A stretch of DNA of 64,000 bases from Terriglobia bacterium (GTDB lineage: Bacteria > Acidobacteriota > Terriglobia > Terriglobales > Acidobacteriaceae), in NCBI GenBank assembly GCA_963724105.1, contig CAVRTD010000002.1:29650-93649 (forward strand), given 5' to 3'. The first letter of the stretch is position 1, and every line of letters begins with the position of its first letter. Under the pieces are notes generated by a model. The model searched no databases. It was not told the DNA's origin and was given only the letters and a program-made list of their open reading frames with translations. The position numbers were made by a program, and so were the translations under genes. Below, one piece after another: positions 28,274 through 63,418 of the stretch.

Positions 28274-28555
28274 ATGAGCCATCACGACCCTCAATTTCAA
28301 TCGGCTATTCGCCAGGTACTCCGGCGATCCGCCATAGATCAGGATTTTCGCCAGTTGGCGCTGAAAGATAGCACGGCGGCTTTCGCTAAATTTGGCATCG
28401 TTCCGCCTGCGGACGTCACGGTGGATTTCATTGACAACTTCGGGAAGCCGAGGAAGACCATTGTGCTCCCTGACCCAGTGGCACAGGTAGAGGAACTAAC
28501 AGACGAGGACTTAGAGGAAGTAGCCGGGGGATGTGTCCTGGCAAGCACCATCTAG
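28274..28555 (+). CDS. NHLP/Nif11-type RiPP precursor peptide: 86-aa leader ending VAGG, 7-aa core CVLASTI
   Basis: Start chosen at MSHHDPQF (RBS GAAGGAG 8 nt upstream). The leader reads ...AIDQDFRQLALKDSTAAFAKFGIVPPADVTVDFIDNFGKPRKTIVLPDPVAQVEELTDEDLEEVAGG|CVLASTI. It has the nitrile-hydratase-like leader layout with a classical double-Gly cleavage motif. The NHLM-type export genes follow directly. Confidence 0.8.
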   Translation: MSHHDPQFQSAIRQVLRRSAIDQDFRQLALKDSTAAFAKFGIVPPADVTVDFIDNFGKPRKTIVLPDPVAQVEELTDEDLEEVAGGCVLASTI

Positions 28556-28650
28556 TTCATACGATGAATTCATGAGTCGGAGTGCAGAAGTGCTTCTGCA
28601 AGCTGAGAGCTGCTTCTGCACATTCGAACAAAAAATGGCGCGGGACAGAA

Positions 28651-30330
28651 ATGCGTGAAGCAAATAATACCGGAACTATCGGGGCCAACAGATTCGGCCC
28701 GGCAACATTCATTCCTCGGTTGAAGGGTATCTGCACCATAGCGTTCTTCGCACTGATTCTGGCCCCTCTGGGCATTTCGCCTATGCTCGTAGCGCAGACG
28801 CAGAAGGACGAAACCCGCGTTGCCATGCCGGGCCTGGCCAAACCCGTAACGCTGGCGGATGCTTTGCGGGCCACATTGGAATATCATCCTACCCTTCTCA
28901 TACAGCGCCAGGAAGTTACCGTTGCGCAAGCGCAACGGCAAGTGGCGAGCAGCCAGTTTGACTCAACGTTTGGCAGCAATTTCGGCCAGCAAAGTGTAAC
29001 CACGCCGCTTTCCAGGCTTGAGCAAAGCCAGCTGCCTACCGGGATACAGGGAGCAGAGACCAACCAGAATCTGACTGCCTACGGACTCAATATCACAAAG
29101 CAGTTCCGGGACGGAATCTCCATTAATACATTCACCAACATCAATAGGAATATTGACAATCTGACAAATACGTCCGGTCTAAATACTTCACAGACTGGCG
29201 TCCAGTTGGTTTTTCCCTTGCTACAGGGCAGAGGTAGAAATGTTGTCGCTGCTAAAGAGCGAGCGGCGGCAATGGAGGTAGGTTCACGCCAGCTCGATGT
29301 GCGCAGCTTTGCAGAAGACTTGTTGGCGAAGACGGCCGTTAGCTACTGGAATCTGGTCGCTGCCCATGAAAATTTATCCGTCGCCATGGATTCGGAAGGC
29401 CGCAGCAAGGTGCTGCTCGAAACGGTGAACGCATTAATAGAGGCCGACCAGCGTCCTCGTATCGATATGTATGAGGTTAAGGCAACGCTGGCATCACGCA
29501 TCGCTGACCGCATAGCAGCGCAACAGGCGCTGGGACAGGCACGGAAGCAATTGGCGCTGGATATGGGCTTGCCCTCCACTGAGATTCTGACCGTTGGCGA
29601 TCCAGAGGATGATTTCCCCACGGTTAGTAGCGCCATCAAGTCTATTGATGGAGAAGTACTCCAGCAATATATAGACATTGCCCTTCAGAATCGTCCTGAT
29701 GCTATTGCTGCTAAGGAGCGCATCACCCAGGCCAAAGTGCTTTTGTACTCGGCGCAACGCCTCACCAAACCCCAGATCAACTTCCAATTCAGCAGTGGCT
29801 ATACGCAGCTGGCGGAAGGCGGAGCATTCAGTAACTTCCTTGGCTCCTGGTTCTCCACGCTGCACCGCCCTGATATGCAGACAGGCCTGGTCTTCCAGTT
29901 CTCGCGAGGCAACAATCTCGCCCAGGGCCAGAAATTGGAGGCGCAGGCCAAAAGCAGAGAAGCTGAGCTGCAGCTCTCACAACTGCATCGGATAATCACC
30001 GGCAGCGTGGCCATTGCCGCCGAGAGCGTGCAGGATTCCGTTCTTCGGCTGCAGAATCTCCGCGAAGCAGTGGCCGCGTTCGTTAGCACCGTGGAGGGAC
30101 TGCGGGAAAAATACAGGCTCGGTGAAGCTTCGCTCACGGAATTAACGACTGTTGAAGATCGCTTGAATGCCGTGCGTTCAAGCTACGTTCAAGCTGAATT
30201 GGACTATGCGGTTGCTCTTGCCAATCTTCGGCTCGCTACCGGCACATTGCTGCGGAGTACCGATCCACTCGGTGCTGATGCAAGCGTTTTTTCAACATTG
30301 CCTGACGCAGGCCTGGAGACAAAACGCTAA
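28651..30330 (+). CDS. TolC-like outer-membrane factor of the peptide export system
   Basis: The OEP-type repeats begin LADALRATLEYHPTLL. The signal-like segment is ICTIAFFALILAPLGISPMLVAQ. Start set at MREANN (28651); the track start at 28582 is possible. Confidence 0.8.
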   Translation: MREANNTGTIGANRFGPATFIPRLKGICTIAFFALILAPLGISPMLVAQTQKDETRVAMPGLAKPVTLADALRATLEYHPTLLIQRQEVTVAQAQRQVASSQFDSTFGSNFGQQSVTTPLSRLEQSQLPTGIQGAETNQNLTAYGLNITKQFRDGISINTFTNINRNIDNLTNTSGLNTSQTGVQLVFPLLQGRGRNVVAAKERAAAMEVGSRQLDVRSFAEDLLAKTAVSYWNLVAAHENLSVAMDSEGRSKVLLETVNALIEADQRPRIDMYEVKATLASRIADRIAAQQALGQARKQLALDMGLPSTEILTVGDPEDDFPTVSSAIKSIDGEVLQQYIDIALQNRPDAIAAKERITQAKVLLYSAQRLTKPQINFQFSSGYTQLAEGGAFSNFLGSWFSTLHRPDMQTGLVFQFSRGNNLAQGQKLEAQAKSREAELQLSQLHRIITGSVAIAAESVQDSVLRLQNLREAVAAFVSTVEGLREKYRLGEASLTELTTVEDRLNAVRSSYVQAELDYAVALANLRLATGTLLRSTDPLGADASVFSTLPDAGLETKR

Positions 30331-30343
30331 TGGAGGTAGAAGC

Positions 30344-31591
30344 ATGAATATTTTTCGAAAAGTCTCTCTTGACAGGCTTTCATCGCCTGAGCAACTCGAT
30401 GAGCTAATGCACGTGACTAGCCTGCACGGCTGGCTGGCGCTTATGGCGCTGTTATTGCTCGTGATATCTGGAGTGATATGGGGGTTCGAAGGCAGCATTC
30501 CCACCACGGTTTCCGGCGAGGGCGCCATCGTTCGCCAGGGTGGAATCATGAATGTCGTAACTCGAGGGTCAGGACTTCTACTTGAACTCAATGTGCACGT
30601 CGGCGACAGGGTAGCCGCCAATCAGGTCGTGGCTCGCGTTGGACAGCCCGCCATGGTTGAGAAGCTCCAACTCACACGCCAAATGCTGGATAGAGCCAGG
30701 CTTGAGCGCGGAGAATCTCTCGCGCTCCATTCCAATCAGGCGCGTTTGCGGGTGGAAGCCGTGGACCGCCAGCGCCAGAACGATGAACGCCAGATCAAAG
30801 ACCTGCAAGAGCAGGCAAAACTAGCAGCTGAACAAGTCAAGATCACCGATGAATTGTTGACCCGGGGACTGGTCACGCGACAACAAACCATTACAGCGCG
30901 ACAGAACCTCAAGACCATCGAGGGGCAGATTGCGGCCCAGCAGGCAGATATCAAGCAACTGGAGGCGCAACGGTCTGAATTTGCCTCCAAGCCGGGAGAA
31001 ACCGATACGGAAGTACGGAGCCGCATTACCGAACTTGAACACAATCTCATTGAGATGGAAAAAGATCTGGAGCTCAATAGCAGTGTTGTGAGCCCTTACG
31101 CCGGTGAAGTGATCGAACTCAAAGCTTATCCTGGAAGCACGGTTGCGGCGGAAACGCCGGTGCTGAGTATCCAGCCGGAAAATGACAACCTGGAAGTACT
31201 GGCTTACGTGCCGTCATTGCGCGCCAAAGAAATCCGGACACAAATGGAGGCGCAGGTTTCTCCTTCAATTTTCAATCGCGAGGAATACGGTTTCATTCGC
31301 GGGCAGATTGTTCATGCGGCTGATTTTCCATCCACCAAAGCCGCGTTGATGCGGAACTTTGAAAATGAGGCTTTAGTTAGTTCTCTGACTGCCGGTGGAC
31401 CCGTAACTGAAATTACCGTGCGCATGACTCGCGATCCGAAAGCTCCCAGCGGGTTTCGCTGGTCTTCCTCGCAGGGACCGCCGCTACGCCTTTCTGGCGG
31501 GACCTTGTGCACCCTTCAGGTTGTAACGATGAGGCAAAGGCCCATCGCCTTGCTGTTGCCTTTTCTCAAATCCAAGCTGGGAGTTGACTAA
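30344..31591 (+). CDS. HlyD-family secretion protein (NHLM bacteriocin-system type)
   Basis: Start MNIFRKVSLDRLSSPEQLDELM with RBS GGAGG. This N-terminal motif, one TM, a coiled coil and the C-terminal beta-barrel are typical of bacteriocin-export HlyD proteins. Confidence 0.85.
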   Translation: MNIFRKVSLDRLSSPEQLDELMHVTSLHGWLALMALLLLVISGVIWGFEGSIPTTVSGEGAIVRQGGIMNVVTRGSGLLLELNVHVGDRVAANQVVARVGQPAMVEKLQLTRQMLDRARLERGESLALHSNQARLRVEAVDRQRQNDERQIKDLQEQAKLAAEQVKITDELLTRGLVTRQQTITARQNLKTIEGQIAAQQADIKQLEAQRSEFASKPGETDTEVRSRITELEHNLIEMEKDLELNSSVVSPYAGEVIELKAYPGSTVAAETPVLSIQPENDNLEVLAYVPSLRAKEIRTQMEAQVSPSIFNREEYGFIRGQIVHAADFPSTKAALMRNFENEALVSSLTAGGPVTEITVRMTRDPKAPSGFRWSSSQGPPLRLSGGTLCTLQVVTMRQRPIALLLPFLKSKLGVD

Positions 31592-33910
31592 GTGCCTGCC
31601 TTATTCAACGAGTCTTTCTCCGTGCGCAACATCCTTCAGTCGGGGAAAGTGCGGCTGCAGGCATTCAGGCACAAGGTTATTCCGCGTCAATCGGCGAACT
31701 TGCCGGAACCTGAGCCGGGGCAGGCTCCGGCCTCTACTTTCGCAAATACAGCCTTTAAGACCAGCCGCAAGAAAACTCCTACTGTCTTGCAAATGGAGGC
31801 GGTGGAATGCGGAGCCGCGGCGCTCGCCATCATTCTTGGATACTTCGGCCGCTTTGTCCCACTGGAGGAATTGAGAATTAGCTGTGGTGTTTCCCGCGAC
31901 GGCAGCAAGGCTAGCAATGTGGTAAAAGCAGCGCGCACCTATGGACTCGCCGCAAAGGGTTACAAAAAAGAACCGCAGGAATTGCGTGATGTTCCCCTGC
32001 CTGCAATCATCTTCTGGAATTTCAATCATTTTCTTGTACTCGAAGGGTTTGGCAAAAAGAAAATCTACCTGAATGATCCGGGATGCGGCCCCCGAACCGT
32101 GAGCTACCAGGAATTTGACGAAGCATTCACCGGAGTAGTTCTGGCCTTTGAAAAGACGCCTGCGTTCGAGCCTGAGGGACGCAAAGCAAATATCTTCAAA
32201 TTCCTGAAGAGCCGCCTTCCGGGTAGCCGTCTCGCTCTCGCCTATATCATTGTGAGCACTCTGGCGCTGGCCGTGCCCAATTTAGTCATTCCAATTTTTT
32301 CCAAGATATACGTCGATAACTTGCTGATTGGTGAGATGAAGAGCTGGCTGGCGCCGCTCGTCACAATCATGGTACTGGTGGCCCTGCTGAAGGGAACACT
32401 TACGTATTTGCAGCAAAAAGCGCTGCTCCGTCTGGAGATGAAATTATCGCTTGGCGCTTCGGGAAAGTTCTTCTGGCACGTGCTTCGTCTGCCCATGGAT
32501 TTTTTTTCCCAGCGGATGAGCGGCGAAATTTCCCAGCGCGTGGACATCAATGACCAGGTGGCCATTTTGCTTTCCGGTGACGTGGCCACCAACATGGTGA
32601 ACATTTTGCTGATCGGCTTTTATGCTGCACTGATGTTGCGCTATGACGCGGGCCTCACTTTCATCGGCATTGCCATCTCGCTGTTGAATTTAGCTGCTCT
32701 TCGTTACGTCTCTCGCAAAAGAGTGGATAGCAATCGCAAACTGCTGATGGACCAGGGCAGGATGATGGGAACCGCCATGATGGGACTACAGAGCATTGAC
32801 ACCCTCAAAGCAACCGGTGGCGAAGCACACTTTTTTGCCCGCTGGGCCGGGTACCAGGCAAAGGTGGTCAATGGACAGCAGGAGTTAGGTGTCTCATCAG
32901 TATGGCTCTCCGCCGTCCCTCCCTTTTTGACCGCGCTCAATTTCACCGCCGTTCTGGCCATTGGATCCGTTCGAGTGATGAACGGAGTTCTGACTGCTGG
33001 CATGCTGATCGCTTTCCAGAGCTTGATGGGTAGTTTTATTGATCCGGTGAACAAGCTGGTCGATCTTGGCAGCAAACTGCAGGATGCGCACGGCAGCATG
33101 CTGAGACTTGATGACGTTGCTAACTATCAGGCAGATCCGCAGGTCCCGGCGACAGTGAACGCATCCCCGGAGCCGGAAGAAGTTCAGCGCCTGGCCGGAT
33201 ACCTTGAGCTGCGCGGAATAACCTTCGGATACAGCCGGCTTGATCCTCCACTGCTCAAGAACTTTGACATCAGCATTAAGCCCGGTCAAAGAGTGGCCCT
33301 GGTTGGCGGCTCTGGAAGCGGAAAGTCCACAATCGCCAAGATCGCTGCCGGCCTGTATATCCCGTGGGAAGGGGAAATCCTGTTTGACGGTAGAGCGCGC
33401 AACACGCTTCCCAGAACTGTGCTGGCCAATTCCATTGCTGTTGTTGATCAGGACATCTTCTTATTTGAAGGGACACTGCGAGACAACCTCTCCATGTGGG
33501 ATAACACGATCGAAGAGGAATCATTGGTTACCGCGGCCAAAGATGCCTGCATCCATGATGAGATTACCCGTCGTCCTGAGGGATATGACTCCATTGCGAT
33601 GGAAGGGGGAAAGAATTTCTCAGGTGGGCAGCGGCAAAGATTGGAGATTGCCCGGGCGCTGGCTTCTGATCCCAGGATCCTGATTCTGGACGAGGCCACC
33701 AGTGTTTTAGATTCAGAAACTGAAAAAATTATCGATGATCATTTGCGCCGGCGCGGCTGCACTTGCCTGATCGTTGCTCATCGCCTCAGCACTATCCGTG
33801 ATTGCGATGAAATCATCGTTCTCCAACGTGGGCAAGTTGTCCAGCGGGGCACCCACGACGAACTGGTTAAGGCCGGCGGGGCCTATTCCGAACTGATTAA
33901 GGCGGCTTGA
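31592..33910 (+). CDS. C39-peptidase-domain ABC transporter (double-glycine leader cleavage/export)
   Basis: The C39 motif is [21 protein letters not shown] (catalytic Cys), followed by ..NHFLVLEG... A 6-TM domain follows. Walker A is GGSGSGKST, the signature is FSGGQRQR and Walker B is [12 protein letters not shown] start right after the HlyD stop. Confidence 0.9.
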
Positions 33911-33912
33911 TT

Positions 33913-36819: not shown

Positions 36820-37991
36820 TGGATAACCTACTGAAGTTTCGCGCCGAAGTACTAAACTCTTGCGGAGCCAGCAGTTCAGAAACCCAGGAACTCCTTGCCT
36901 ATAGTGATAACCGCTTTGACCACGCAGGGCTGGCGGAGATCGTGTTTCCTCTTGCTGATGAACCTTTTGTGAAATCCTGGAAAGCCTATGGAGAAGAGGT
37001 TACAGCAGCGGGCACTTTCTCAATCCTTGCGAAATACCTCGTCCAGTTACGGTTTCCCATCAGGACAGGCATGAGTCAGGATCCTGATTATCTTGCGGCT
37101 ACCACCAGAGGCACAGGCTTTGCAACGGATGGGCCCCTGGGTCTTCCACTGATCGCACCAGAGAAATGCCACGTTGTCCTGCACCCGACTCCGGCCGGCC
37201 ACATACCATTGTTGATTGCTGAAGAGCGCATGGACTTCGTATTGCTGGTACAGGCACTTGCCAGGCGCAACGAACCGACTCCTATTCCGGCTTCCATGGG
37301 CGCCTGCATGGTCAGCGGCTACAACAACTGGGATCGAGTCTTCCAGGTTGTCCAGAAAGATGGAGCGGCACGATCCCTGAATCCTTCCGATTATCAGGAT
37401 CGTTTTATCATTCTTAGCAAAGGCTACTATAGCGGGGTGGAGCCTGCCGCTATGTCTCTCCAGGAACGCGAGTGGCGTGAACTATCCTTGATCATTCGGC
37501 GAGAACATGAGTCAACGCACTACTTTACGCGGCGGGTATTCTCCTCCATGCGTAATAATTTGCTCGACGAAATCCTCGCTGATTATTGTGGGGTTGTTAC
37601 AGCTACAGGCCGCTTCCTTCCAGACTGGATGCTCCGCTTCTTTGGCCTGGAACATTTTCCGCACTATCGTTCAGGCGCAAGGCTGGAGAACTATAAGGGT
37701 AAACCGGCGCTTTCCGCTGGCGCTTTTTTGGTTTTGCAAAAGCTCGTCAAGCAGGCGATTGACAACCTGGGCGCCATGAATGCCCCGATAGCAAAGAGTG
37801 ACTGGCAAAGCTCTCCATTCCCGCTGCTTGGGTTGCTGGCCTTGTCCAGGTTCACGCTGGAGGAGCTGGCTTCCGGCGACGCGCCCGATCTAATACAGGC
37901 TGAACTCTTGCGCCTGGAAACTGCCGGCATCGGCTCGCGTCGATCCATCAACTACGATCCACACACAACATCATTAGGCCAGGCTGGGTGA
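36819..37991 (+). CDS. unknown protein with HExxH motif, translationally coupled to the ABC2 gene
   Basis: 390 aa. The ATG shares a base with the upstream TAA (TAATG). The sequence REHESTHYFTRRVFSSMRNNLLDEILADY contains HESTH plus a downstream Glu, compatible with a gluzincin-like site. There is no signal peptide or TM. Confidence 0.5.
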   Translation: MDNLLKFRAEVLNSCGASSSETQELLAYSDNRFDHAGLAEIVFPLADEPFVKSWKAYGEEVTAAGTFSILAKYLVQLRFPIRTGMSQDPDYLAATTRGTGFATDGPLGLPLIAPEKCHVVLHPTPAGHIPLLIAEERMDFVLLVQALARRNEPTPIPASMGACMVSGYNNWDRVFQVVQKDGAARSLNPSDYQDRFIILSKGYYSGVEPAAMSLQEREWRELSLIIRREHESTHYFTRRVFSSMRNNLLDEILADYCGVVTATGRFLPDWMLRFFGLEHFPHYRSGARLENYKGKPALSAGAFLVLQKLVKQAIDNLGAMNAPIAKSDWQSSPFPLLGLLALSRFTLEELASGDAPDLIQAELLRLETAGIGSRRSINYDPHTTSLGQAG

Positions 37992-56615: not shown

Positions 56616-56765
56616 TCACCCTAAGTCTGGAGGCCCACACAAGGGTGAACCAGTTTCAGTACCGCCTGAAACTTCCTCAAGAGCGGCGTCGGAAAGGGGT
56701 TCGATTTCAGCGTCTTTCCGGCTCTGAATTGACTTGCCAGGCTGTTTTTTTTCCTCGTTTGGCAT
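56616..56765 (-). CDS. lanA: third precursor A3 (49 aa) with the same leader box, different core
   Basis: MPNEEKKQPGKSIQSRKDAEIEPLSDAALEEVSGG|TETGSPLCGPPDLG*. Start at the internal ATG 56765 of track ORF 56616-56810, with RBS GAAGGGA upstream. Confidence 0.7.
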   Translation of the reverse strand: MPNEEKKQPGKSIQSRKDAEIEPLSDAALEEVSGGTETGSPLCGPPDLG

Positions 56766-56831: not shown

Positions 56832-57854
56832 TTACACCCGCGCAAGCTCCTGCGCAGGCACAAGACTATGATCTTCTACCGCTTTAATCAGAAGATGGTG
56901 CACATAGGCCTCATGCAGAGGTGTTACCCCAAATTGATTCGCCATTCCGTGCAACATCTTGAACAGAGGCGGAAAGTTCACGTTCGTAGTGAACGGATCA
57001 ATCTGATGTTCGCCGGAGCCGGCAAAAGATTGCGTATAAGCTGACAATGCCGCAAAGGTCCGCAACCACGGCTCTACTTCCTGGGCGCCGCTGTTGCGCG
57101 CCCACTCTTCATCACTGAGCTGCGCCAGCTTTGTTCTGGCAGTGCTGGAACCGGCTTGGGCATCAAAATGTGCACGAATCTCCAACTCTTTGCTGGATTC
57201 GGAAATGAAAAACCGCAAAAGCCAATCGCGATGAAAGGCAAGATATTCTGTCGCGCTGGTTCGATCACCAAGGCCAGAAGCACCCAGAGCCGAGATCAGG
57301 CTTTTTGCCAACAGAGATTGCTTGCTGCCATCCGAAAGCTCGCCCTGCTCATCTACGGCGGTGAGGAACACGCCAGTTGTTGCCGCAAGGCAACGACAGG
57401 CAAGGGCGACAAAATTTTCGTCTTCGAGCCAGGGTGACGCAGGAAGCGACACGTAGCTGCGTCCATAGGTTGTGGCGAGAAAGTTACGATCGGCGAAATC
57501 AGAATCTACTTTGTCTTCAGCGTCAATGGGTGGGGCCTTGGGATTACTTACACGAGGATCAGCCGCCAGGTAAGTGCGCGCTTTCTCGATCCACTTTTCT
57601 ACGTGGCTGTGCAGCAAAGGCCTCAGTGAATCCACCACAGCCCGCTCACCGTGAAGCCGAATCTTGAGGTGCTCCCCACCACGCGCGTAACGCATAATCC
57701 AAAGCCAACAATCCCCATCTGGCCGGACGCCCTGCATGTCACGCCAGAACGGCACAATCCCTTGCTGCAACAGGTTGTCCACCAGGCCGCTGGCATAAAT
57801 ATTTGCGGTTAAGATTGGATCTGCCGAATTGAGTGAATTAAGCATGTCCTTCAC
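56832..57854 (-). CDS. third SpaB_C-like (LanB C-terminal-type) paralogue
   Basis: ILTANIYASGLVDNLLQQGIVPFW...CWLWIMRYARGGEHLKIRLHG and the C-terminal LFKMLHGMANQFGVTPLHEAYVHHLL are collinear with the SpaB_C pattern. Confidence 0.65.
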   Translation of the reverse strand: MKDMLNSLNSADPILTANIYASGLVDNLLQQGIVPFWRDMQGVRPDGDCWLWIMRYARGGEHLKIRLHGERAVVDSLRPLLHSHVEKWIEKARTYLAADPRVSNPKAPPIDAEDKVDSDFADRNFLATTYGRSYVSLPASPWLEDENFVALACRCLAATTGVFLTAVDEQGELSDGSKQSLLAKSLISALGASGLGDRTSATEYLAFHRDWLLRFFISESSKELEIRAHFDAQAGSSTARTKLAQLSDEEWARNSGAQEVEPWLRTFAALSAYTQSFAGSGEHQIDPFTTNVNFPPLFKMLHGMANQFGVTPLHEAYVHHLLIKAVEDHSLVPAQELARV

Positions 57855-57932: not shown

Positions 57933-58472
57933 TCAGGCCACGGAAACGTTTTGAAAATGTTGCTCAGGCGCGGGCAAGGGAACGTACCCACCGAGATCGA
58001 CAACGACGGAACTGCGAACGACTTCAATCGATAGAACCAGCCGATGCTGATTACGGTGACTCTCAACAACGCCTTCAATCCCATCAAAAGGGCCACCAGT
58101 AATCCGCACTCTGGAACCAATCTCTGCATACTCGCACGGTTGCATCTGGTATCCAGACTTGACAGCTGATTGAATTGCGCTGATTTCGTGGTCAGGGATG
58201 ATAGCTGGAGATTTAGCAGTACCGAGAATACGTATGACGCCTGGGGTCAACAGGATGGGACCGCTACCCATAGCCTTGATGCGACAAAATACATATCCGG
58301 CAAATAATGGAAGCTGTATTTCCTTCCATCGATCAGACCAGCGCCTGCGTACAACATAAGAAGGAGCAAATGTCTCGTAATTCTTTTCCGACAGGAGTCG
58401 CGCAGCAGTGAATTCATGCTGGTACCGTACGTAGATCGCACACCATGCGCTGTCATACTGGCTGAGGTCCAT
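57933..58472 (-). CDS. specialised NusG paralogue (RfaH/LoaP/UpxY-like antiterminator), first gene of the operon
   Basis: Start MDLSQYDSAW with a strong RBS GAAGGAG. The NGN-like N-terminus is WCAIYVRYQHEFTAARLLSEKNYETFAP. The KOW motif is IGSRVRITGGPFDGIEGVVES. Confidence 0.8.
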   Translation of the reverse strand: MDLSQYDSAWCAIYVRYQHEFTAARLLSEKNYETFAPSYVVRRRWSDRWKEIQLPLFAGYVFCRIKAMGSGPILLTPGVIRILGTAKSPAIIPDHEISAIQSAVKSGYQMQPCEYAEIGSRVRITGGPFDGIEGVVESHRNQHRLVLSIEVVRSSVVVDLGGYVPLPAPEQHFQNVSVA

Positions 58473-58921
58473 ACCGTCTCCTTCGGTCAACGTGAGTTTG
58501 CCGATACAGATGAATCGCACACTCTTCACCTCAAGCGGATGGAAAACAGCAGGACGTAATCTTTGTATAGAGGTGTGAGGGAGCCACCGGTTGCGGCAAG
58601 GCAGGCTGCCGCCATTTTGAGTCCCAACTTCTTACTCATTCACTAACCCTTACCGGGCCAGTCACAGTGAGAATTAGCAATGCCATTGCCAAAGCATGCG
58701 TTCTATGAAGAACCGTGCTTTCCATTGTGCATTTTGATTCACAATGATTATGTTTGTGATGGTGATTCCCACTTTGAAATTATGGATCCGCTGCTCGTTC
58801 CGCTTTTAGTTGGAGTTCAACGACTATCATTTCCATTCTGGTTGACGATTGCTGCGGTGCCGGACAGGAACAACCGTAAAGGTGGCAAATTTAATTTTGT
58901 CCGACTTATCCTCAGCCAGGC

Positions 58922-59068: not shown

Positions 59069-60331
59069 CTATTGGATGGGGGTTGACGGCGTGAATTTTG
59101 GAACCATAATCACGATGTCATATCCAAAAATAAGCCGCTCCAGCTCTTCATCAACTGGGCCAAGCGCTTTAAATCTCCGGCGAAGGCCGCGAAGATCGTA
59201 GAGAGTCCAGCCTTCCGGCAATCGATGGTCCACCAGCGGCTTAATGAAAGAAACCGCAGAACTTGTATCCTGTACCAGATCAAAATTCTCCAGTTGCGGT
59301 GGCTGGCCGGGCGCACCAAAACTGATCTCTGCTCCCTTCACTCCAATGATGTTGATATGAAGAGAGGTGGAATGATGGCCTTCTGCCAATTCAGCCACAA
59401 AATTGCCCAGATCGTCGTTATGTAGAGGATTAATCCCCTTATAAAGGTGGGCGGAGCCAAACTTGAGCAAGACTTTGGCGGGTTTTCCCTCAGCCCGCGT
59501 CTGGTCATCATAATAACGGGCGAACAACGCCTTCATCATTAGCGCCCGCTGAAGGTTGGAATCATAAGCTTCACCCTGCAGATATTTGTGGTAGATATCG
59601 CGGCTTTCGATGAAGGCATTCAGAATGGCTTGCGAAGCCGGATTCCCTTCCCGAGCCACCGAGTTCTTAAGTTCCAGAATCTCGCTGTCCGGCACAGACA
59701 GCATAAAAATATCGTTCACTTTCCCCGAAGCCACGGTCCGCGCATAGGCTTGATCATTTTCGCGGAACATCTGGCGTATTTTGGCAGCCGCCGCCTTGCC
59801 GGGATGAGAATTCAAGAGGCTCTGTAGCAAAAACCTGGACTCTCCGTAAAACTCCTGATCAAGCCCCCATATATGGAATTTTTCATTTTCCGCAGTATGG
59901 CTGCAATGGGCCAACAGATCTGTTTCCTCCTGAAGACGATAGAATGGGAGGGCGTCTGGAAATTCTTTCTGAAACTCAGCAACCTGGTGGCGTGAATCCG
60001 TGGAGCGGGCCCACTTCTCTAATTGGCCGGCCATCATTGGGCCGGTTTCAATTGCCATGGAATGAAACCCTTGCGGAACGGCAAGGTCACATATTGCAGA
60101 AGAGAACTCGGGGGTTTCCGCATTGCCGTGTTGTTCACCGATGAGCACAAACTGGGCGGAGGCAATGGCCTTGCGCAGAACCTCAGCTCCTGCGCCAGAT
60201 AAATGCCCATCCTTCAGGTTGAGATCATAGCGGTTCTCAAGAAGTTGTTTTCCGAGTTGTTCCTGCGCCAACATACATCCAAGGCCGGCAATTCCTAGAA
60301 ATACCACAGCCGCCAGTTTGGTGATCACCAA
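59069..60331 (-). CDS. secreted Tiki/ChaN/erythromycin-esterase-superfamily-like protein
   Basis: 420 aa with a signal peptide (AAVVFLGIAGLGCMLAQ). FVLIGEQHGNAETPEFSSAICDLAVPQGFHSMAIETG resembles the GE.H(G)..E...Gf...E N-terminal signature of that superfamily (recalled from memory). The gene follows lanKC by 80 nt. Confidence 0.45.
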   Translation of the reverse strand: MVITKLAAVVFLGIAGLGCMLAQEQLGKQLLENRYDLNLKDGHLSGAGAEVLRKAIASAQFVLIGEQHGNAETPEFSSAICDLAVPQGFHSMAIETGPMMAGQLEKWARSTDSRHQVAEFQKEFPDALPFYRLQEETDLLAHCSHTAENEKFHIWGLDQEFYGESRFLLQSLLNSHPGKAAAAKIRQMFRENDQAYARTVASGKVNDIFMLSVPDSEILELKNSVAREGNPASQAILNAFIESRDIYHKYLQGEAYDSNLQRALMMKALFARYYDDQTRAEGKPAKVLLKFGSAHLYKGINPLHNDDLGNFVAELAEGHHSTSLHINIIGVKGAEISFGAPGQPPQLENFDLVQDTSSAVSFIKPLVDHRLPEGWTLYDLRGLRRRFKALGPVDEELERLIFGYDIVIMVPKFTPSTPIQ

Positions 60332-60411: not shown

Positions 60412-63111
60412 TCAGGATCCGACGTGCATTGCAACCAGCGCCTGTTCTTCTTCCGAGAATAAAGTACCATCTCTTGCAAACAAGGAGTCAAGCATAAAAT
60501 CGTTTTGCTGATTTCCAAGCAGGCGGTTAAGAAATAGAGCAATGCCTGCGCTTCCTGTACCGAAATCACATGACAGCCTGAATAGTGAATTTCCGGGAAA
60601 TGCGATTCCCTTCCGTTCCACACGGAAATTCATTATTCCCTCTGCAAGTCTGGCAGCACTTTCCCGATACCGGGAGTGTGCGGTCAGGTCGTGCATGTCG
60701 AGAAGAAACTCGCCGATGCCTGCCAGGCCAGTGAATCGTCCTGCAAAAACCGCGTATTTCCGGTCGGTATCCAGATAGATCTTATCCAAAACCTGTTCAT
60801 AGCAGGATTCACCGAGCAGTCGGTAGTAGCGCGCCGTTGCAATCCCGATTCCAGCACTCCCGTGCTGCCAGTATGGATAGACCGGCGACGTTGATCCGGT
60901 TGACATGGGCCACGTAAGTCCCGCATCTTTATTTTGCAATCCGAAACTCAGATCAAAGTCCAAAGCACGCCGCCCAACATAAAGAAAGCGCTCATTCTTT
61001 GTTGCGAGATAGAGGTAGAGCAGGAACAGAGCAATGCCGGAAGATCCGCGGGCAAGGCCGAGAGGCGCACCTTCGCGTTCACCCCAGTAGCAGCCGCGTC
61101 CGTCTTCTTTACACTGCTCGACAAGGTGATTCCCGGCTTGCACGGCGTGCGCAAGGTAAACTCTGTCGTTCGTAGCCATCCAGAAACGCAGGTCTGCCAT
61201 CCCCCACCCGGAAACGCCATGGAAGAGATCGCAAGCATCAAAAGCCAGGGGATGTGTATGGACCTGGCGCATTGCAGTCTCTGCTTCTGCCTGCAACCCC
61301 ATTTCAAGCAGACTCCATGCAATTCCAGCGAGCCCGATATACAGACCTGGAGCATATGTCCCATGCGTCAAACGCTTGTTGCTGATCCACTGCAGAACAC
61401 GGGAGGGCACGCCTCCTGTGATTTTGTGCCATGCATAAGCCACACCACATGCCCCAAAAGCGAGGCTGAGCGGGTTGGTAGCAAAGAGCCTGGCATCGGC
61501 CGGAAACAGCCTATCTTCGCGTTCATACGTTACCGTACTCTTCCAGTGGTCGACGATGCGCTCCAACACGCAAGGGTAGTTCTCCCGCCTGAGTTCATGC
61601 ACGGGCTCCACTTCGACGCTGGAATCTTCATCCATCAGGCAACCGAGACGGGCGGGTGTTGTAGGCTGACCTGGATCATGATTCATCAATCCAATAATCA
61701 TGCTTGTGATTGATCTGGGCAGTCGAGAATCCTTGCGTATCGATTCCATCAGCTCACGAATCGCTTCTCTTTTAAGTTGAATGAGGCCATTCCAGGGAAA
61801 AAGGTAGGCAAACAGGACCGCTCCAAGCGAATAGTAATCACTTTCAATGTCGGCAGGCATACCCTGGAGTCGATTCGGCGAGACGAATCCAGGAGTAAAA
61901 AGATTGGTGGGACGATCAATCTCTTTCTGGTAAGCACCTTCGAAGTCGATAAGCTTCAGGGAAGTGCCGCCGGCCAATACCATCACATTATTCGCGGAGA
62001 GATCCGCGAAGACGATGCCACGGCTATGCAATACTTCGATCATCCGGATGAGATTCAGAGAGATTTCAACAAAGGTCCGCTGCCATTCGACATAGTCTGT
62101 CTGCAAAGGCCTGGTGCGGAGCAAAATATTGTGCGCCGCGGAGTAACGGCCCAGTACCATTCCGTCAATGTATTCTTCAACTAGGAACCAATGCTCCCAA
62201 TCCTGGAAGAGATCCACGGGTTGCGGGGCTATTCCTGTATCGGCGATGACTGTGAGCAGGCGGTGTTCCTTCTTGAGCAGTTCCACCGCATCGTAACCGT
62301 CAAACGATTCATTCACGAACGGCCGGGCTTCCTTGATCACGACGGGCTGCCGGGTGAGATGGTCAAACGCCTTATACACGCCTCCGGCATTGGAAAAATC
62401 AATTACACTTTCGATCGTATAACGCCCTTGCTTAAGAGTTGGGCTGGCTTCGTTGTTGTCCGCTGGCTCGTCTGGAGCCAGTGGACCACATACCCAGTCC
62501 GGCGTAATGGGATACGGAAGCCTCTGATCGGGGACTGAACTCCCGTCAGGGGTGATAAGAACGGGAACACTCTCGCCTTTTACATTCAGCTTCTCACGGA
62601 GGCGCATTCCACCGTATCGATAGAAAACAACGCCACTATCTTTATAACGGCGATCTGAGAGAATGTAGGGCCCCTGGAATCCCTTAAGTTCTTGACGCAG
62701 GGATTCAATCAGTTCCAGAAAGCAATGGTCATTTTGAGGGTAGATGGTAATGAATTTGGAAGATCCCCCTCGAGGGAAGTTTTTGCCGTTCACAAGCTGC
62801 AATACCCGCAGATCCAGGGAAAATTTAAACGTGGTGTCCTGACGCTGGAGGAGCAGTGCGCTCACGCGATCCAGCACTTCACGCGCATTTGCCAGCGAGC
62901 TGGAAACATGTATCTTCCAACCCTGGTATGGACAGAGATTTTGTTGTGAGGAGCAAACAAACCAGAGCTGTTGCCGGCGAATCTCCCATCCCCCTGACAA
63001 CCGAGACGAGACTAGGTCATAAAAATCCTTAGTGCGCGGCACATAGTAGTCAAATGTTTCGTCATAATCGCTTTGCACCAGGCTATAAAGCCCATATGCT
63101 CTGGTTCGCAT
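60412..63111 (-). CDS. lanKC: class III lanthipeptide synthetase (lyase - kinase - Zn-ligand-less cyclase)
   Basis: The lyase motifs are QGWKIHVSS and SKFITIYP. The kinase motifs are GGVYKAF..VVIKEA, FADLSANNVMV and KLIDFEGAY. The C-terminal LanC-like repeats (GSSGIALFL, YWQHGSAGIGIA, CDFGTGSAGIALFL) lack the WC and CH zinc ligands. The probable start is MRTRAYG (63111, RBS GAAGGGA); the track gives a TTG at 63132. Confidence 0.85.
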   Translation of the reverse strand: MRTRAYGLYSLVQSDYDETFDYYVPRTKDFYDLVSSRLSGGWEIRRQQLWFVCSSQQNLCPYQGWKIHVSSSLANAREVLDRVSALLLQRQDTTFKFSLDLRVLQLVNGKNFPRGGSSKFITIYPQNDHCFLELIESLRQELKGFQGPYILSDRRYKDSGVVFYRYGGMRLREKLNVKGESVPVLITPDGSSVPDQRLPYPITPDWVCGPLAPDEPADNNEASPTLKQGRYTIESVIDFSNAGGVYKAFDHLTRQPVVIKEARPFVNESFDGYDAVELLKKEHRLLTVIADTGIAPQPVDLFQDWEHWFLVEEYIDGMVLGRYSAAHNILLRTRPLQTDYVEWQRTFVEISLNLIRMIEVLHSRGIVFADLSANNVMVLAGGTSLKLIDFEGAYQKEIDRPTNLFTPGFVSPNRLQGMPADIESDYYSLGAVLFAYLFPWNGLIQLKREAIRELMESIRKDSRLPRSITSMIIGLMNHDPGQPTTPARLGCLMDEDSSVEVEPVHELRRENYPCVLERIVDHWKSTVTYEREDRLFPADARLFATNPLSLAFGACGVAYAWHKITGGVPSRVLQWISNKRLTHGTYAPGLYIGLAGIAWSLLEMGLQAEAETAMRQVHTHPLAFDACDLFHGVSGWGMADLRFWMATNDRVYLAHAVQAGNHLVEQCKEDGRGCYWGEREGAPLGLARGSSGIALFLLYLYLATKNERFLYVGRRALDFDLSFGLQNKDAGLTWPMSTGSTSPVYPYWQHGSAGIGIATARYYRLLGESCYEQVLDKIYLDTDRKYAVFAGRFTGLAGIGEFLLDMHDLTAHSRYRESAARLAEGIMNFRVERKGIAFPGNSLFRLSCDFGTGSAGIALFLNRLLGNQQNDFMLDSLFARDGTLFSEEEQALVAMHVGS

Positions 63112-63226
63112 ACATAATCCCTTCGTGCTCAATACTTGTAGCGAATCCTAAATACAATTTTGCGGCCGGCGATCTGGCGCCGAATATTCAACCTTGCTCC
63201 TGTTTTTCATTTCCAATTCCTGCAAA

Positions 63227-63263
63227 CCGTTCCGAACGATTGCCAGCAAGAGGTTCAGAACGG
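63227..63263 (-). terminator. imperfect hairpin after the class III precursor gene (attenuator candidate)
   Basis: CCGTTC-c-GAAC ... GTTC-a-GAACGG gives 10 paired bases with one mismatch pair and a 15-nt loop. On the minus-strand RNA it starts 15 nt after the TAA and is followed by UUUGCAGG. Confidence 0.4.
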
Positions 63264-63277
63264 TCGCTAGAATCGAT

Positions 63278-63418
63278 TTACTCATGATGAAGTGGACTGG
63301 CCTCTTCTGCTTGTACCGTAGGACAAATGCCGCTCGCTGTACTCATCAACATCTCTTCTCCAGCTATAACGTCCGGGGCCCATGTGGTCAACTTTTGCAG
63401 CGCAAGGATGTTACCCAT
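63278..63418 (-). CDS. class III lanthipeptide precursor (46 aa), not in the ORF track
   Basis: Hand translation: MGNILALQKLTTWAPDVIAGEEMLMSTASGICPTVQAEEASPLHHE*. A strong RBS AGGAGAAAAATCT precedes the ATG. ILALQKL matches the class III leader ILxLQ box. STASGIC is a Ser-x-x-Ser-x-x-Cys unit. Confidence 0.75.
   Translation of the reverse strand: MGNILALQKLTTWAPDVIAGEEMLMSTASGICPTVQAEEASPLHHE

What the first reader, a model, noticed from the sequence alone, without database searches (positions are those of the whole stretch)
28274..63418. One export machine, four double-Gly leaders, three precursor families: a 35-kb converging RiPP island
The only peptide exporter or leader peptidase visible is the NHLM-type set (TolC-like, HlyD, C39-ABC, second ABC) at 28651-36819. 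The NHLP leader end (VEELTDEDLEEVAGG) and the small-precursor leader ends (IEPLSDQALEDVSGG and variants) share an acidic L(S/T)D..LE(E/D)(V/A)(A/S)GG box. All four could therefore be C39 substrates. No LanP- or LanT-type gene accompanies the class I-like genes.

The two gene strings converge at 38550/38643. The physical grouping suggests a functional unit larger than any single annotated cluster type. Double-Gly leaders on LanB-dependent precursors are also atypical, since class I leaders usually carry an FNLD-type box and are cut by LanP.
Basis: inference. Interest (0 to 1): 0.7.

Follow-up and report, generated by a model that had tools for sequence, protein, structure and literature searches.

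The report
Shared peptide exporter beside lanthipeptide genes
An uncultured soil Acidobacterium keeps one leader-cutting peptide exporter, a signalling module and a hybrid lanthipeptide pathway together as a conserved gene neighbourhood, so the exporter probably serves several peptide types; the parts are known but this combination has not been described.

Summary
Exactly four ORFs in the window carry the L(S/T)D..LE.(V/A)(A/S)GG leader box, against none in shuffles. The NHLM export set scores above its curated cut-offs, its C39 domain has an intact catalytic triad, and its closest solved relative is the promiscuous protease LahT150.

- A second lineage, about 70 % nucleotide identity, keeps the exporter, signalling block and split-LanB cassette in the same convergent order.
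- A third lineage has the same parts collinear.
- At least 16 of 48 loci of this LanB family (Acidobacteriota, Gemmatimonadota) have an NHLM-type ABC pair within 10 kb, in several arrangements. None of 21 outgroup loci does.
- Every family member inspected has the same double-Gly leader.

Three corrections apply.
- The class III LanKC end (60.4-63.4 kb) is not part of the conserved unit, and its precursor has no GG leader.
- Double-Gly leaders on LanB substrates are already documented in Gram-negative bacteria.
- DUF7005 in the exporter operon has an invariant HExxH motif, so C39 may not be the only peptidase.

Extra findings are a ProcM-like CCG cyclase, three elimination-domain paralogues, a cyclase/cNMP link and a conserved transposase-like gene.

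Verdict: a new variant of known kinds, of moderate interest.

The parts
28274..28555 (+). NHLP-type long-leader precursor; leader ends VEELTDEDLEEVAGG, core CVLASTI
   Evidence: TIGR03793 E 3.3e-10 (39.7 bits, below cut-off 50.9) and NHase_alpha similarity. Leader box. Homologues sit beside the exporter in L009, L018 and L076.
28651..30330 (+). TolC-like outer-membrane channel
   Evidence: TIGR01844 E 6e-21. Conserved in L008, L009, L076 and many family loci.
30344..31591 (+). NHLM-system HlyD-type membrane fusion protein
   Evidence: TIGR03794, 313 bits against cut-off 156.
31592..33910 (+). ABC1: C39 peptidase / permease / ATPase (PCAT), the leader-cleaving exporter subunit
   Evidence: TIGR03796, 1105 bits against 853. 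Peptidase_C39 at residues 62-190. Best PDB match LahT150 6mpz, E 8e-48. Cys (ECG), His (NHF) and Asp (NDP) align with PCAT1.
33907..36819 (+). ABC2: second permease/ATPase subunit, with a 284-residue N-terminal extension of unknown fold
   Evidence: TIGR03797, 930 bits against 709. The N-terminal extension has no Pfam hit and no similarity to the cNMP protein.
36819..37991 (+). DUF7005 protein with invariant HExxH plus downstream D/E; candidate metallohydrolase
   Evidence: PF22541, 414 bits. H230, E231, H234, D250, E251 and D255 are invariant in 35 homologues. AF2 pLDDT 90. No PDB fold match.
38011..38550 (+). cNMP-binding 'bacteriocin-type transport-associated' protein
   Evidence: PF00027 E 3e-16. 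TIGR03896 partial, 140 bits. Follows ABC2 or DUF7005 in most exporter-bearing family loci.
38643..39917 (-). Receiver-PP2C (SpoIIE) phosphatase
   Evidence: Present in L009 but missing in L008, so it is a variable part of the signalling block.
39874..41430 (-). Receiver-histidine kinase
   Evidence: Orthologues in L008 (shortened) and L009.
41498..41875 (-). Stand-alone receiver
   Evidence: 83 % identical (tblastn) in L008.
41902..44958 (-). PDZ-GAF hybrid sensor histidine kinase
   Evidence: Overlaps the cyclase gene by 4 bp. Orthologues in L006, L008 and L009.
44955..46700 (-). Receiver-class III nucleotidyl cyclase
   Evidence: PF00211 E 2e-48. Starts 2 bp after LanC ends. Orthologues next to LanC in L006/L008 (71 %) and next to TolC in L076 (54 %).
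46703..47992 (-). Stand-alone LanC-type cyclase with ProcM-like CCG zinc motif
   Evidence: PF05147, 173 bits. Best NCBIfam match is the LanM C-terminal domain. Best PDB match is the LicM2 cyclase domain, with CCG where LicM2 has CHG. CCG in 29 of 29 family loci.
48021..49415 (-). IS701-family transposase-like gene, conserved in place
   Evidence: NF033540, 249 bits. Same site in L006/L007/L008. dN 0.15, below its neighbours, with saturated pS. No terminal inverted repeats.
49453..50535 (-). Lant_dehydr_C protein (most likely the glutamate-elimination partner of the split LanB)
   Evidence: PF14028, 114 bits. Present in nearly every family locus. 150 top representatives are stand-alone proteins.
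50517..51527 (-). Divergent Lant_dehydr_C-like paralogue
   Evidence: Weak PF14028/TbtD hits. Conserved in most family loci.
51376..52077 (-). Unknown 233-aa protein, paralogue of the next gene
   Evidence: No family hit. Orthologue in L006 at 63 %.
52138..52809 (-). Unknown 223-aa protein, family-specific
   Evidence: Only a sub-threshold TPR hit. Conserved after the precursors in most family loci.
52886..52921 (-). 15-bp stem-loop followed by a T-rich tract, directly after the last precursor gene (attenuator-like)
   Evidence: The same stem sequence occupies the equivalent site in L006 (z = -3.7).
52955..53110 (-). Small GG-leader precursor A1; core VLEPCPIASCSANVCSG
   Evidence: Orthologues in L006.
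53296..53451 (-). Small GG-leader precursor A2; core CPIASCSANVCSGDLA
   Evidence: Orthologues in L006.
53643..56399 (-). Split LanB, glutamylation (N-terminal) part only
   Evidence: PF04738, 82 bits, with no PF14028. About 50 homologues by protein search and 48 family loci surveyed.
56616..56765 (-). Small GG-leader precursor B; core TETGSPLCGPPDLG
   Evidence: Orthologue in L006 at the same position.
56832..57854 (-). Second Lant_dehydr_C paralogue, upstream of LanB
   Evidence: PF14028, 44.5 bits. Conserved next to LanB_N in most close family loci.
57933..58529 (-). NusG-family (UpxY/LoaP-like) transcription antiterminator
   Evidence: NF033644, 110 bits against cut-off 100. A NusG paralogue also lies near the cassette in L002, L006 and L010.
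59069..60331 (-). Unknown 420-aa protein with a hydrophobic N-terminus, conserved at the edge of the unit
   Evidence: 67 % orthologue in L006. No family hit. AF2 model poor.
60412..63132 (-). Class III LanKC synthetase: adjacent but NOT part of the conserved unit
   Evidence: NF038151, 753 bits against cut-off 575. Absent from L006/L007.
63278..63418 (-). Putative class III precursor (leader ILALQKL, core STASGIC; no GG leader)
   Evidence: ORF. Weak lanthi_III_a hit, E 0.05. The motif reading rests on general knowledge of class III leaders.

Best explanation
Window 28.3-60.3 kb is a conserved three-module neighbourhood of an uncultured Acidobacterium (Candidatus Angelobacter-like).

Module 1 is an NHLM-type tripartite exporter: TolC, HlyD, C39-ABC1 and ABC2. 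It comes with a DUF7005 protein, a cNMP-binding protein and an NHLP precursor.

Module 2 is a phosphorelay that ends in a receiver-nucleotidyl cyclase.

Module 3 is a hybrid lanthipeptide cassette. It holds a split LanB glutamylation enzyme, a stand-alone elimination-domain protein plus two further paralogues, a stand-alone cyclase with a ProcM-like CCG zinc site, two unknown paralogues, and three small precursors. A NusG-family antiterminator is encoded at its head.

Proposed mechanism:
1. The small precursors are dehydrated by LanB_N and the elimination protein, then cyclised by the CCG cyclase.
2. Like the NHLP peptide, they dock through the last ~13 leader residues (L-12, L-7, V/A-4, GG) onto the C39 domain of ABC1.
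3. ABC1 cuts after GG and exports the cores through HlyD and TolC.

Shown: gene identities, an intact catalytic triad, the shared leader box and the conserved neighbourhood. Inferred: the actual cleavage and export, the chemistry of the products, and control of export by a cyclic nucleotide made by the adjacent cyclase and sensed by the cNMP-binding protein.

The class III LanKC cluster at 60.4-63.4 kb is a separate neighbour.
For: Gene identities.

Leaders:
- Four leader boxes in the window and none in shuffles.
- Small precursors carrying the (I/V)E(P)L(S/T)D..LE.(V/A)(A/S)GG leader directly after LanB_N were found in most of the 48 family loci across two phyla; the loci without a match are mostly short or truncated contigs.

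C39 domain:
- Cys, His and Asp are present, and the best solved relative is LahT150 (E 8e-48).
- LahT150 cleaves Nif11-type, NHLP-type and short leaders through the C-terminal 13 leader residues (PMC6363468).

Synteny:
- The L006+L008 composite (one population) has the same convergent order.
- L076+L010 (same contig) has cyclase, exporter, DUF7005, cNMP protein, NHLP precursor, an rSAM module and the LanC-LanB cassette collinear.
- L004 has ABC1/ABC2 (51 % and 45 % identical) directly after the cassette.
- 16 of 48 family loci against 0 of 21 outgroup loci carry NHLM-type ABCs within 10 kb (Fisher p 0.0015; p about 5e-17 against a generous random-placement background). Upstream/same-strand and downstream/opposite-strand layouts both occur.
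- Matching contig lengths suggest three more co-located LanB/ABC1 pairs.

Signalling:
- LanC, the cyclase and the kinase genes are separated by 2 bp or overlap by 4 bp.
- The cyclase is next to the unit in three architectures.
- A cNMP protein follows ABC2 in most exporter-bearing loci.
- A C39-ABC fused to a cNMP_binding domain exists (P0291).
- HetC is a PCAT that needs its cNMP-type domain (PMC10986499).
Against: - No biochemical evidence exists; all of this is comparative.
- 18 of 29 family loci with full 10-kb flanks show no exporter within 10 kb. Two of these, L010 and very probably L002, have one at 12-19 kb. Adjacency is therefore frequent but not obligatory, and export in trans by another PCAT cannot be excluded.
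- In the window the two modules are separate, convergent transcription units 17 kb apart.
- The one gene fusion (Lant_dehydr_C to C39-ABC in L004) is a singleton and may be an assembly artefact.
- The NHLP hit is below the curated cut-off.
- HetC's cNMP-type domain bound ppGpp and not cAMP in vitro, so the ligand here is uncertain.
- The cyclase is seen next to the unit only in the Angelobacter-like lineages, not in most Thermoanaerobaculia loci.
- The ABC2 N-terminal extension is not detectably a cNMP domain.
Confidence: 0.65

Rival explanations
1. The clusters are independent and simply lie in a biosynthetic hot-spot. The NHLM exporter serves only its own NHLP peptide, and the small GG-leader lanthipeptide precursors are processed by another PCAT encoded elsewhere in the genome.
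For: - The exporter and the lanthipeptide genes are separate convergent units 17 kb apart.
- Many family loci show no exporter within 10 kb.
- NHLM sets and DUF7005 are widespread and mostly unrelated to this LanB family.
- A class III cluster also lies adjacent without being conserved, so unrelated RiPP clusters do accumulate here.
Against: - 16 of 48 family loci against 0 of 21 outgroup loci have the NHLM pair within 10 kb, in several rearranged layouts across two phyla.
- The whole arrangement is retained between lineages whose synonymous sites are saturated.
- No other C39 protease was found in the window or in most family loci.
Confidence: 0.2
2. The whole 35-kb stretch, including the class III LanKC system, is one co-regulated island whose products all leave through the NHLM exporter.
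For: All genes from LanKC down to the receiver-phosphatase lie on one strand with mostly short gaps.
Against: - LanKC and its precursor are absent from the otherwise syntenic L006/L007 lineage, where an ABC ATPase, a phosphoesterase and an FG-GAP gene lie upstream of unk420 instead.
- The class III precursor has no GG motif at its leader end.
- MacB/FtsX transporter genes flank the class III genes just outside the window.
Confidence: 0.05
3. The cassette does not make lanthipeptides. The extra Lant_dehydr_C paralogues act as pyridine-synthase-like [4+2] cyclases on Ser/Cys-rich cores, giving pyritide- or thiopeptide-like products. The double-Gly leader and exporter still serve for release.
For: - There are three Lant_dehydr_C-type proteins per cluster.
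- They give weak hits to the TbtD/PbtD pyridine synthase model (53, 19.5 and 19.6 bits).
- Many family cores are Ser/Cys-rich (SCCSCSxCS).
- Extra elimination-domain homologues in class I clusters are noted as homologous to the [4+2] enzyme (PMC7268733).
Against: - The scores are far below the 325-bit cut-off of the pyridine synthase model.
- No YcaO or azole-forming genes appear in the window or the inspected loci.
- A LanC cyclase with an intact Cys-rich zinc site accompanies the cassette in 29 family loci, and the cores have Cys positioned for thioether formation.
Confidence: 0.1

Closest known systems
NHLP/Nif11 bacteriocin export system (TIGR03794 / TIGR03796 / TIGR03797; Haft et al. 2010) and its characterised protease domain LahT150
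   Same: It has the same three-gene core above the curated cut-offs and an NHLP-type precursor next to it. Its C39 domain is closest to LahT150. One exporter faces several precursors with diverse cores.
   Different: The described partners are TOMM and LanM (class II) enzymes. Here the recurrent partner is a split-LanB (class I-type) cassette with short leaders. The operon also carries TolC, DUF7005 and a cNMP-binding protein, and sits next to a receiver-cyclase phosphorelay.
Gram-negative class I lanthipeptides with double-Gly leaders (pinensin with split LanB; Ped15.1/2, thalassomonasins, viridisins)
   Same: LanB-type dehydration plus a separate LanC, multiple precursors per cluster, a Gly-Gly leader end, and C39 proteases often encoded in-cluster. 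Split LanB is known from pinensin.
   Different: - The leader box is different: the Bacteroidetes leaders carry LxLxKx5L, whereas here it is an acidic EIEPLSD..LE.V.GG box like NHLP/Nif11 leader ends.
- The exporter is the two-ABC NHLM type (57-82 % identity among family loci). The Bacteroidota-type outgroup loci carry ABC transporters only 24-31 % identical.
- The cyclase has CCG and not CHG.
- There are two extra elimination-domain paralogues and two unknown conserved proteins.
- The phyla are different.
ProcM-type (prochlorosin) class II systems
   Same: A CCG three-cysteine zinc motif in the cyclase, leader ends of the NHLP/Nif11 style, several precursors with diverse cores, and TolC/HlyD/C39-ABC genes nearby.
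   Different: There is no LanM dehydratase domain: the TIGR03897 match covers only the C-terminal cyclase part and is below cut-off. Dehydration is by a split LanB. The small precursors have short leaders, not full Nif11/NHLP domains.
HetC of Nostoc, a PCAT with an N-terminal cNMP-type domain
   Same: A peptidase-containing ABC exporter functionally tied to a cNMP-binding module.
   Different: Here the cNMP module is a separate small protein and a nucleotidyl cyclase is encoded nearby. HetC's domain bound ppGpp and not cAMP, and HetC has no membrane-fusion partner nearby.

Membership tests
NHLM/NHLP bacteriocin export system | HlyD-type (TIGR03794), peptidase-ABC (TIGR03796) and second ABC (TIGR03797) all above curated cut-offs and adjacent | tested here: met
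   313 against 156, 1105 against 853, and 930 against 709 bits. The genes are contiguous at 30344-36819.
NHLM/NHLP bacteriocin export system | Catalytically competent C39 domain (Cys, His, Asp), not a C39-like domain | tested here: met
   Cys in QMEAVECG, His in NFNHF and Asp in LNDPG align with PCAT1 and LahT150.
NHLM/NHLP bacteriocin export system | NHLP or Nif11 family precursor (TIGR03793 / TIGR03798) associated | tested here: inconclusive
   TIGR03793 E 3.3e-10 but 39.7 bits, below the 50.9 cut-off, plus NHase_alpha similarity. Homologues sit beside the exporter in L009 and L076.
NHLM/NHLP bacteriocin export system | Exporter actually cleaves and exports the neighbouring GG-leader peptides | not testable with these tools
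   Needs an in vitro protease assay or genetics.
Class I lanthipeptide (LanB/LanC) pathway | LanB glutamylation domain (PF04738) | tested here: met
   81.9 bits against cut-off 28 on the 918-aa protein at 53643-56399.
Class I lanthipeptide (LanB/LanC) pathway | Glutamate-elimination domain (PF14028), fused or split | tested here: met
   Present on separate polypeptides: 113.6 bits (49453-50535) and 44.5 bits (56832-57854), plus a weak third paralogue. It is a split LanB, as in pinensin.
Class I lanthipeptide (LanB/LanC) pathway | Stand-alone LanC cyclase with zinc ligands | tested here: met
   PF05147, 172.6 bits. The WCxG and GxAHG motifs are present. The third ligand motif is CCG and not the classic CHG, so it is a variant.
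Class I lanthipeptide (LanB/LanC) pathway | Precursor with FNLD-type leader box and LanP (S8) cleavage | tested here: not met
   The leaders carry the EIEPLSD..LE.V.GG box. No S8 protease is in the cluster. This feature is also absent from known Gram-negative class I systems, so it defines only the classical subgroup.
Class I lanthipeptide (LanB/LanC) pathway | Cores with Ser/Thr and Cys; thioether rings in the product; Glu-tRNA dependence | not testable with these tools
   The cores do contain Ser/Thr and Cys (CPIASCSANVCSG; TETGSPLCGPPDLG). Rings and cofactor use need chemistry.
Class II (LanM / ProcM-like) lanthipeptide synthetase | Single polypeptide with an N-terminal LanM dehydratase domain plus a C-terminal cyclase | tested here: not met
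   TIGR03897 matches only model positions 532-932 (275 bits, below cut-off 304) on a 429-aa protein. There is no LanM dehydratase domain in the window.
Class III lanthipeptide (LanKC) | RamC_N lyase, kinase and LanC-like domains; NF038151 above cut-off; adjacent precursor | tested here: met
   753 bits against cut-off 575, with all three domains. A 46-aa ORF upstream gives a weak lanthi_III_a hit (E 0.05). This applies only to 60412-63418, which is not part of the conserved unit.
Thiopeptide / pyritide pathway | Pyridine synthase (NF045556) above cut-off; YcaO/azole enzymes for thiopeptides | tested here: not met
   The best score is 53 bits against a cut-off of 325. No YcaO is present in the window or the inspected loci.

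The most novel reading that the evidence does not exclude
In Acidobacteriota a single NHLM-type PCAT acts as a signal-gated export hub for chemically different RiPPs. A phosphorelay drives a receiver-cyclase, and the cyclic nucleotide is read by the small cNMP-binding protein that travels with the exporter. This opens or closes leader cleavage and export for both NHLP-type peptides and the products of a hybrid pathway (class I split dehydratase, ProcM-like CCG cyclase, two extra elimination-domain paralogues of new function). DUF7005 would be a new HExxH peptidase that trims or recycles leaders.
Probability: 0.2. Interest if true: 0.7.

Novelty: new variant of a known kind. Interest (0 to 1): 0.45.

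Why it matters
The result defines a widespread RiPP family in two poorly explored soil phyla, with about 50 protein homologues, 48 genomic loci, and 193 representative clusters at E ≤ 1e-30 for the elimination protein. I found no publication describing it. The family mixes features normally used to separate lanthipeptide classes: class I dehydration, a class II ProcM-type cyclase site, and NHLP-style leader ends with an NHLM exporter. Cluster-calling tools that cut at single cluster types will split a unit that evolution keeps together.

Practically, the C39 domain is a close LahT150 relative. It could remove the leaders from all four precursors in heterologous production.

The recurrent cyclase and cNMP-binding pair next to the exporter gives a concrete, testable handle on how peptidase-containing ABC exporters are regulated. 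That question has so far been addressed experimentally mainly for HetC.

Tried and rejected
- **Rosetta-stone fusion.** L004 encodes Lant_dehydr_C and C39-ABC in one 1119-aa ORF. No second example appeared among 120 ABC1 homologues or 150 representatives of the elimination protein. I treat it as a singleton and a possible assembly artefact, and use it only as an adjacency case.
- **Island inversion.** I suspected the island was inverted between the window and L006 because a phosphoesterase flanks both. The two are only 28 % identical, so they are paralogues, and I dropped the idea.
- **ABC2 N-terminal extension as a hidden cNMP domain.** It has no Pfam hit and no similarity to the neighbouring cNMP protein.
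- **DUF7005 fold.** The AF2 model is confident (pLDDT 90) but Foldseek found no PDB match below E = 2. The peptidase idea rests only on the invariant HExxH...E pattern.
- **unk420 as a secreted protease.** There is only a faint EreA hit (E 0.098), and the single-sequence AF2 model was unusable (pLDDT 46), so no fold search was run.
- **Curated models for the small precursors.** None of the three hits any NCBIfam model, even at E = 10.
- **Rfam scan of the whole window.** No family reached its gathering score.
- **Terminator at the convergence point 38550/38643.** None was found by the consensus scan.
- **dN/dS as a test of co-inheritance.** Synonymous sites are saturated for every gene (pS 0.67-0.77), so it only shows that all genes, including the transposase-like one, are old and under purifying selection.
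- **What follows the signalling block in L009.** The locus ends inside the hybrid kinase and the tools do not allow walking further.

Full report
**Source and map**

The window is part of a 632-kb metagenome contig (ENA ERZ25039542 contig_23199). The named relatives of its LanB come from Candidatus Angelobacter and other Acidobacteriota MAGs. ORF listing and family scans give the following layout.

Plus strand:
- NHLP-type precursor, 28274-28555
- TolC-like, 28651-30330
- HlyD, 30344-31591
- C39-ABC1, 31592-33910
- ABC2, 33907-36819
- DUF7005, 36819-37991
- cNMP-binding protein, 38011-38550

Minus strand, converging on these:
- receiver-PP2C phosphatase, receiver-kinase, receiver, PDZ-GAF hybrid kinase and receiver-cyclase, 38643-46700
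- LanC-like, 46703-47992
- IS701-type transposase-like gene, 48021-49415
- Lant_dehydr_C, 49453-50535
- a divergent paralogue, 50517-51527
- two unknown paralogues, 51376-52809
- two 51-aa precursors, 52955-53110 and 53296-53451
- LanB N-terminal part only, 53643-56399
- a third small precursor, 56616-56765
- another Lant_dehydr_C paralogue, 56832-57854
- a UpxY/LoaP-like NusG paralogue, 57933-58529
- an unknown protein, 59069-60331
- class III LanKC, 60412-63132
- a 46-aa ORF, 63278-63418

**Checking the observation**

The export set is unambiguous. TIGR03794, TIGR03796 and TIGR03797 score 313, 1105 and 930 bits against cut-offs of 156, 853 and 709. The box L[ST][DE]..L[EDQ].[VAI][ASTG]GG occurs four times in six-frame translation of the window and never in 200 shuffles, and a looser double-Gly pattern finds the same four.

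Three details qualify the statement 'only exporter or leader peptidase visible'.
- A generic OEP-HlyD-MFS efflux set and an S9 peptidase lie upstream.
- MacB/FtsX genes start just beyond the window.
- DUF7005 inside the exporter operon has an invariant HExxH motif.

**Is the C39 domain a plausible processor of all four peptides?**

The domain's catalytic Cys, His and Asp align with those of PCAT1. Its closest solved relative by far is LahT150 (6mpz, E 8e-48). Bobeica et al. showed that LahT150 removes Nif11-type, NHLP-type and short (HalA2, LctA, SunA) leaders, and that recognition lies in the C-terminal 13 leader residues (PMC6363468). All four window leaders present L at -12, L at -7, V or A at -4, and GG within exactly that stretch. 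This step is inference from a characterised homologue, not a measurement.

The split LanB defines a family of about 50 proteins. A scan of one genome per species returned 66 loci, and 48 loci in total are family members (≥26 % identity, including three fetched earlier). They come from Angelobacter, Thermoanaerobaculia, Holophagales, other Acidobacteriota, and Longimicrobium/Gemmatimonadota.

The core cassette is conserved: LanC, Lant_dehydr_C, LanB_N, one to six precursors, the unknown 223-aa protein, a Lant_dehydr_C-like paralogue and Lant_dehydr_C. Small precursors with the leader (I/V)E(P)L(S/T)D..LE.(V/A)(A/S)GG follow LanB_N in most of these loci; the loci without a match are mostly short or truncated contigs.

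Sixteen of the 48 loci have NHLM-type ABC1/ABC2 within 10 kb of LanB_N. Where ABC1 was detected in these species-scan loci it is 57-64 % identical to the window's, and it usually comes with HlyD, TolC and the cNMP protein. In seven loci the exporter is upstream on the same strand, in eight downstream on the opposite strand, and in one downstream on the same strand. None of 21 outgroup loci has it (Fisher p 0.0015; p about 5e-17 against a generous random-placement background).

Three Angelobacter-like architectures contain the full set.
1. The window, and the L006+L008 composite. These two loci are 99.84 % identical over a 5.6-kb overlap, so they are one population at about 70 % nucleotide identity to the window. 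They share the window's convergent order including the signalling block.
2. L076+L010, which are the same contig. A receiver-cyclase lies divergent from TolC-HlyD-ABC1-ABC2-DUF7005-cNMP-NHLP, followed by an rSAM module and then LanC-LanB and the rest, all on one strand. L002 has the same order over the part it covers (77 % nucleotide identity).
3. L004, with ABC1/ABC2 immediately after the cassette.

Because L010, and very probably L002, were scored 'no exporter within 10 kb', the figure of 16 of 48 is a lower bound.

**Limits of the island**

LanKC and its precursor are absent from the otherwise collinear L006/L007 lineage. The 46-aa ORF has a class III-like leader start (weak lanthi_III_a hit) and no GG box. 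The conserved unit therefore ends at about 60.3 kb, and the class III cluster is a neighbour.

**What kind of lanthipeptide pathway this is**

Dehydration is class I-type and split: PF04738 sits on one protein and PF14028 on others. The cyclase, however, is closest to LanM cyclase domains. It carries CCG where LicM2 has CHG, in 29 of 29 family loci. The literature treats CCG as the ProcM-like three-cysteine zinc motif (PMC10783134 and PMC13509491). Two further elimination-domain paralogues and one or two family-specific unknown proteins are conserved. Their weak hits to the thiopeptide pyridine synthase model are far below its cut-off, and no YcaO is present. I therefore keep a lanthipeptide product as the main reading and new chemistry by the paralogues as a minority option.

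**Signalling link**

LanC, the receiver-cyclase and the hybrid kinase are separated by 2 bp or overlap by 4 bp. The cyclase stays next to the unit in all three Angelobacter-like architectures where that region is visible, although its position changes. The cNMP-binding protein follows ABC2 or DUF7005 in most exporter-bearing loci. A C39-ABC fused to a cNMP_binding domain exists (P0291). HetC is a PCAT that needs its cNMP-type domain, although that domain bound ppGpp in vitro (PMC10986499). Control of export by a cyclic nucleotide is thus a reasonable but unproven inference. It is not supported for most Thermoanaerobaculia loci, which lack a nearby cyclase.

**Comparison with the literature**

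Haft et al. linked this export set to NHLP/Nif11 precursors modified by TOMM or LanM enzymes, and the paper does not mention LanB (PMC2887384). Walker et al. reported class I LanAs of Bacteroidetes with GG leaders and in-cluster C39 proteases, split LanB clusters, and extra elimination-domain homologues (PMC7268733). Viridisins are experimentally confirmed LanB/LanC products with double-Gly leaders, and the same paper cites thalassomonasins and Ped15.1/2 (PMC9680876). I found no paper describing this Acidobacteriota/Gemmatimonadota family or its pairing with NHLM exporters.

**Verdict**

The central inference is well supported by comparative evidence and by the properties of a close characterised homologue: one NHLM-type C39 exporter serves several double-Gly precursors, within a unit larger than one cluster type. 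Biochemical proof is lacking. The island is about 3 kb shorter than proposed, and one claimed oddity is already in the literature. This is a new variant of known kinds, of moderate interest.

Noticed in passing
window 48021-49415 (-); L006 17347-18735; L008 17037-18425: An IS701-family transposase-like gene sits between the elimination-domain gene and LanC at the same site in two lineages. These lineages have saturated synonymous sites (pS 0.77). Its dN (0.15) is lower than that of the flanking biosynthetic genes (0.22-0.39), and no terminal inverted repeats were found. It is a candidate domesticated transposase inside a RiPP operon.
   Followed up: partly
window 36819-37991 (+): DUF7005 is widespread (more than 1,200 homologues) and lies in the exporter operon in the window and in L008, L009, L012 and L076. 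It has invariant HExxH plus D250/E251/D255 on two consecutive predicted helices. The AF2 model is confident (pLDDT 90) and has no PDB fold match. It is possibly a new metallopeptidase associated with PCAT exporters.
   Followed up: partly
window 46703-47992 (-): The stand-alone LanC has the ProcM-like CCG zinc motif instead of CHG. This is conserved in 29 of 29 family loci, while more distant loci have LCG or CHG. Its best matches are LanM cyclase domains, not NisC-type LanC.
   Followed up: yes
window 52886-52921 (-); L006 ~13810-13846 (+): A 15-bp stem-loop with a T-rich tail lies directly after the last precursor gene. Nearly the same stem sequence occupies the equivalent position in L006 (z = -3.7). 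It looks like a precursor/enzyme attenuator, and it lies downstream of a NusG-family antiterminator gene.
   Followed up: partly
L020 ~22495(-), L024 ~5909, L028 ~3141, L031 ~6709(-), L039 ~21180(-), L045 ~1750, L047 ~1788, L050 ~5053, L055 ~5183: Many Thermoanaerobaculia/Acidobacteriota loci of the family also encode long-leader precursors (about 70 aa) that look Nif11-like by sequence; this was not tested against TIGR03798. Their cores are short, Cys-free and rich in W, P and G (DGWPPS, DDNWPLP, DTAWPPPPTPPTEGG). The modification and function of these peptides are unknown.
   Followed up: no
window 28541-28555; L009 2-121 and 296-607; L018 ~16666(-): NHLP cores next to these exporters contain Cys plus Ser/Thr: CVLASTI, CGASSCGTTNLA, LLPCGASSCGTTNEMV and SDTEVCGAW. 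The window and L009 cores echo the C-x-x-A-S start of the small-precursor cores (CPIASC...). The NHLP peptides might therefore also be LanB/LanC substrates.
   Followed up: no
window 52955-53110 vs 53296-53451; L006 13629-13790: Precursor A1 (and one L006 orthologue) has 4-5 extra residues (VLEP, EAVAP) between GG and the conserved CP(I/V)ASCSANVCSG core, which A2 lacks. This hints at a second N-terminal trimming step after C39 cleavage.
   Followed up: no
window 49453-50535, 50517-51527, 56832-57854, 51376-52077, 52138-52809: Three Lant_dehydr_C-type paralogues and one or two family-specific unknown proteins (223/233 aa) are conserved around the split LanB in most close family members. Only one elimination protein should be needed, so the roles of the others are unexplained.
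   Followed up: partly
L076 11913-19258 (same in L077, L078, L002): In one Angelobacter lineage, an NHLP precursor, a 171-aa Cys-rich protein, two radical SAM enzymes (one B12-binding), a TPR protein, an aspartyl protease and a methyltransferase lie between the exporter and the LanC-LanB cassette. This looks like a third RiPP module sharing the same exporter.
   Followed up: no
just beyond window 64000 (L001 1-2310); L004 20266-22817: MacB_PCD/FtsX permease genes flank the class III genes just outside the window. A MacB-type gene also follows ABC2 in L004. These are possible immunity or second export functions.
   Followed up: no
window 1641-4382 (+): A large Trans_reg_C-AAA-TPR regulator lies here. 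Homologues at 23-27 % identity occur within 10 kb of LanB in 13 family loci (e.g. L019, L020, L024, L039, L047, L055). In the window it is 24 kb from the exporter, so a link is unclear.
   Followed up: no
window 12258-14576 (-) and 16556-20855 (+): An S9/DPP-IV family peptidase and an OEP-HlyD-MFS tripartite efflux set lie upstream of the finding. No evidence ties them to the RiPP genes.
   Followed up: no
L004 14824-18183 (+): A single 1119-aa ORF joins the Lant_dehydr_C protein, a short HlyD-N-terminus-like linker and the C39-ABC transporter. It is unique to this contig in the databases searched. It could be a real fusion or a lost stop codon.
   Followed up: yes
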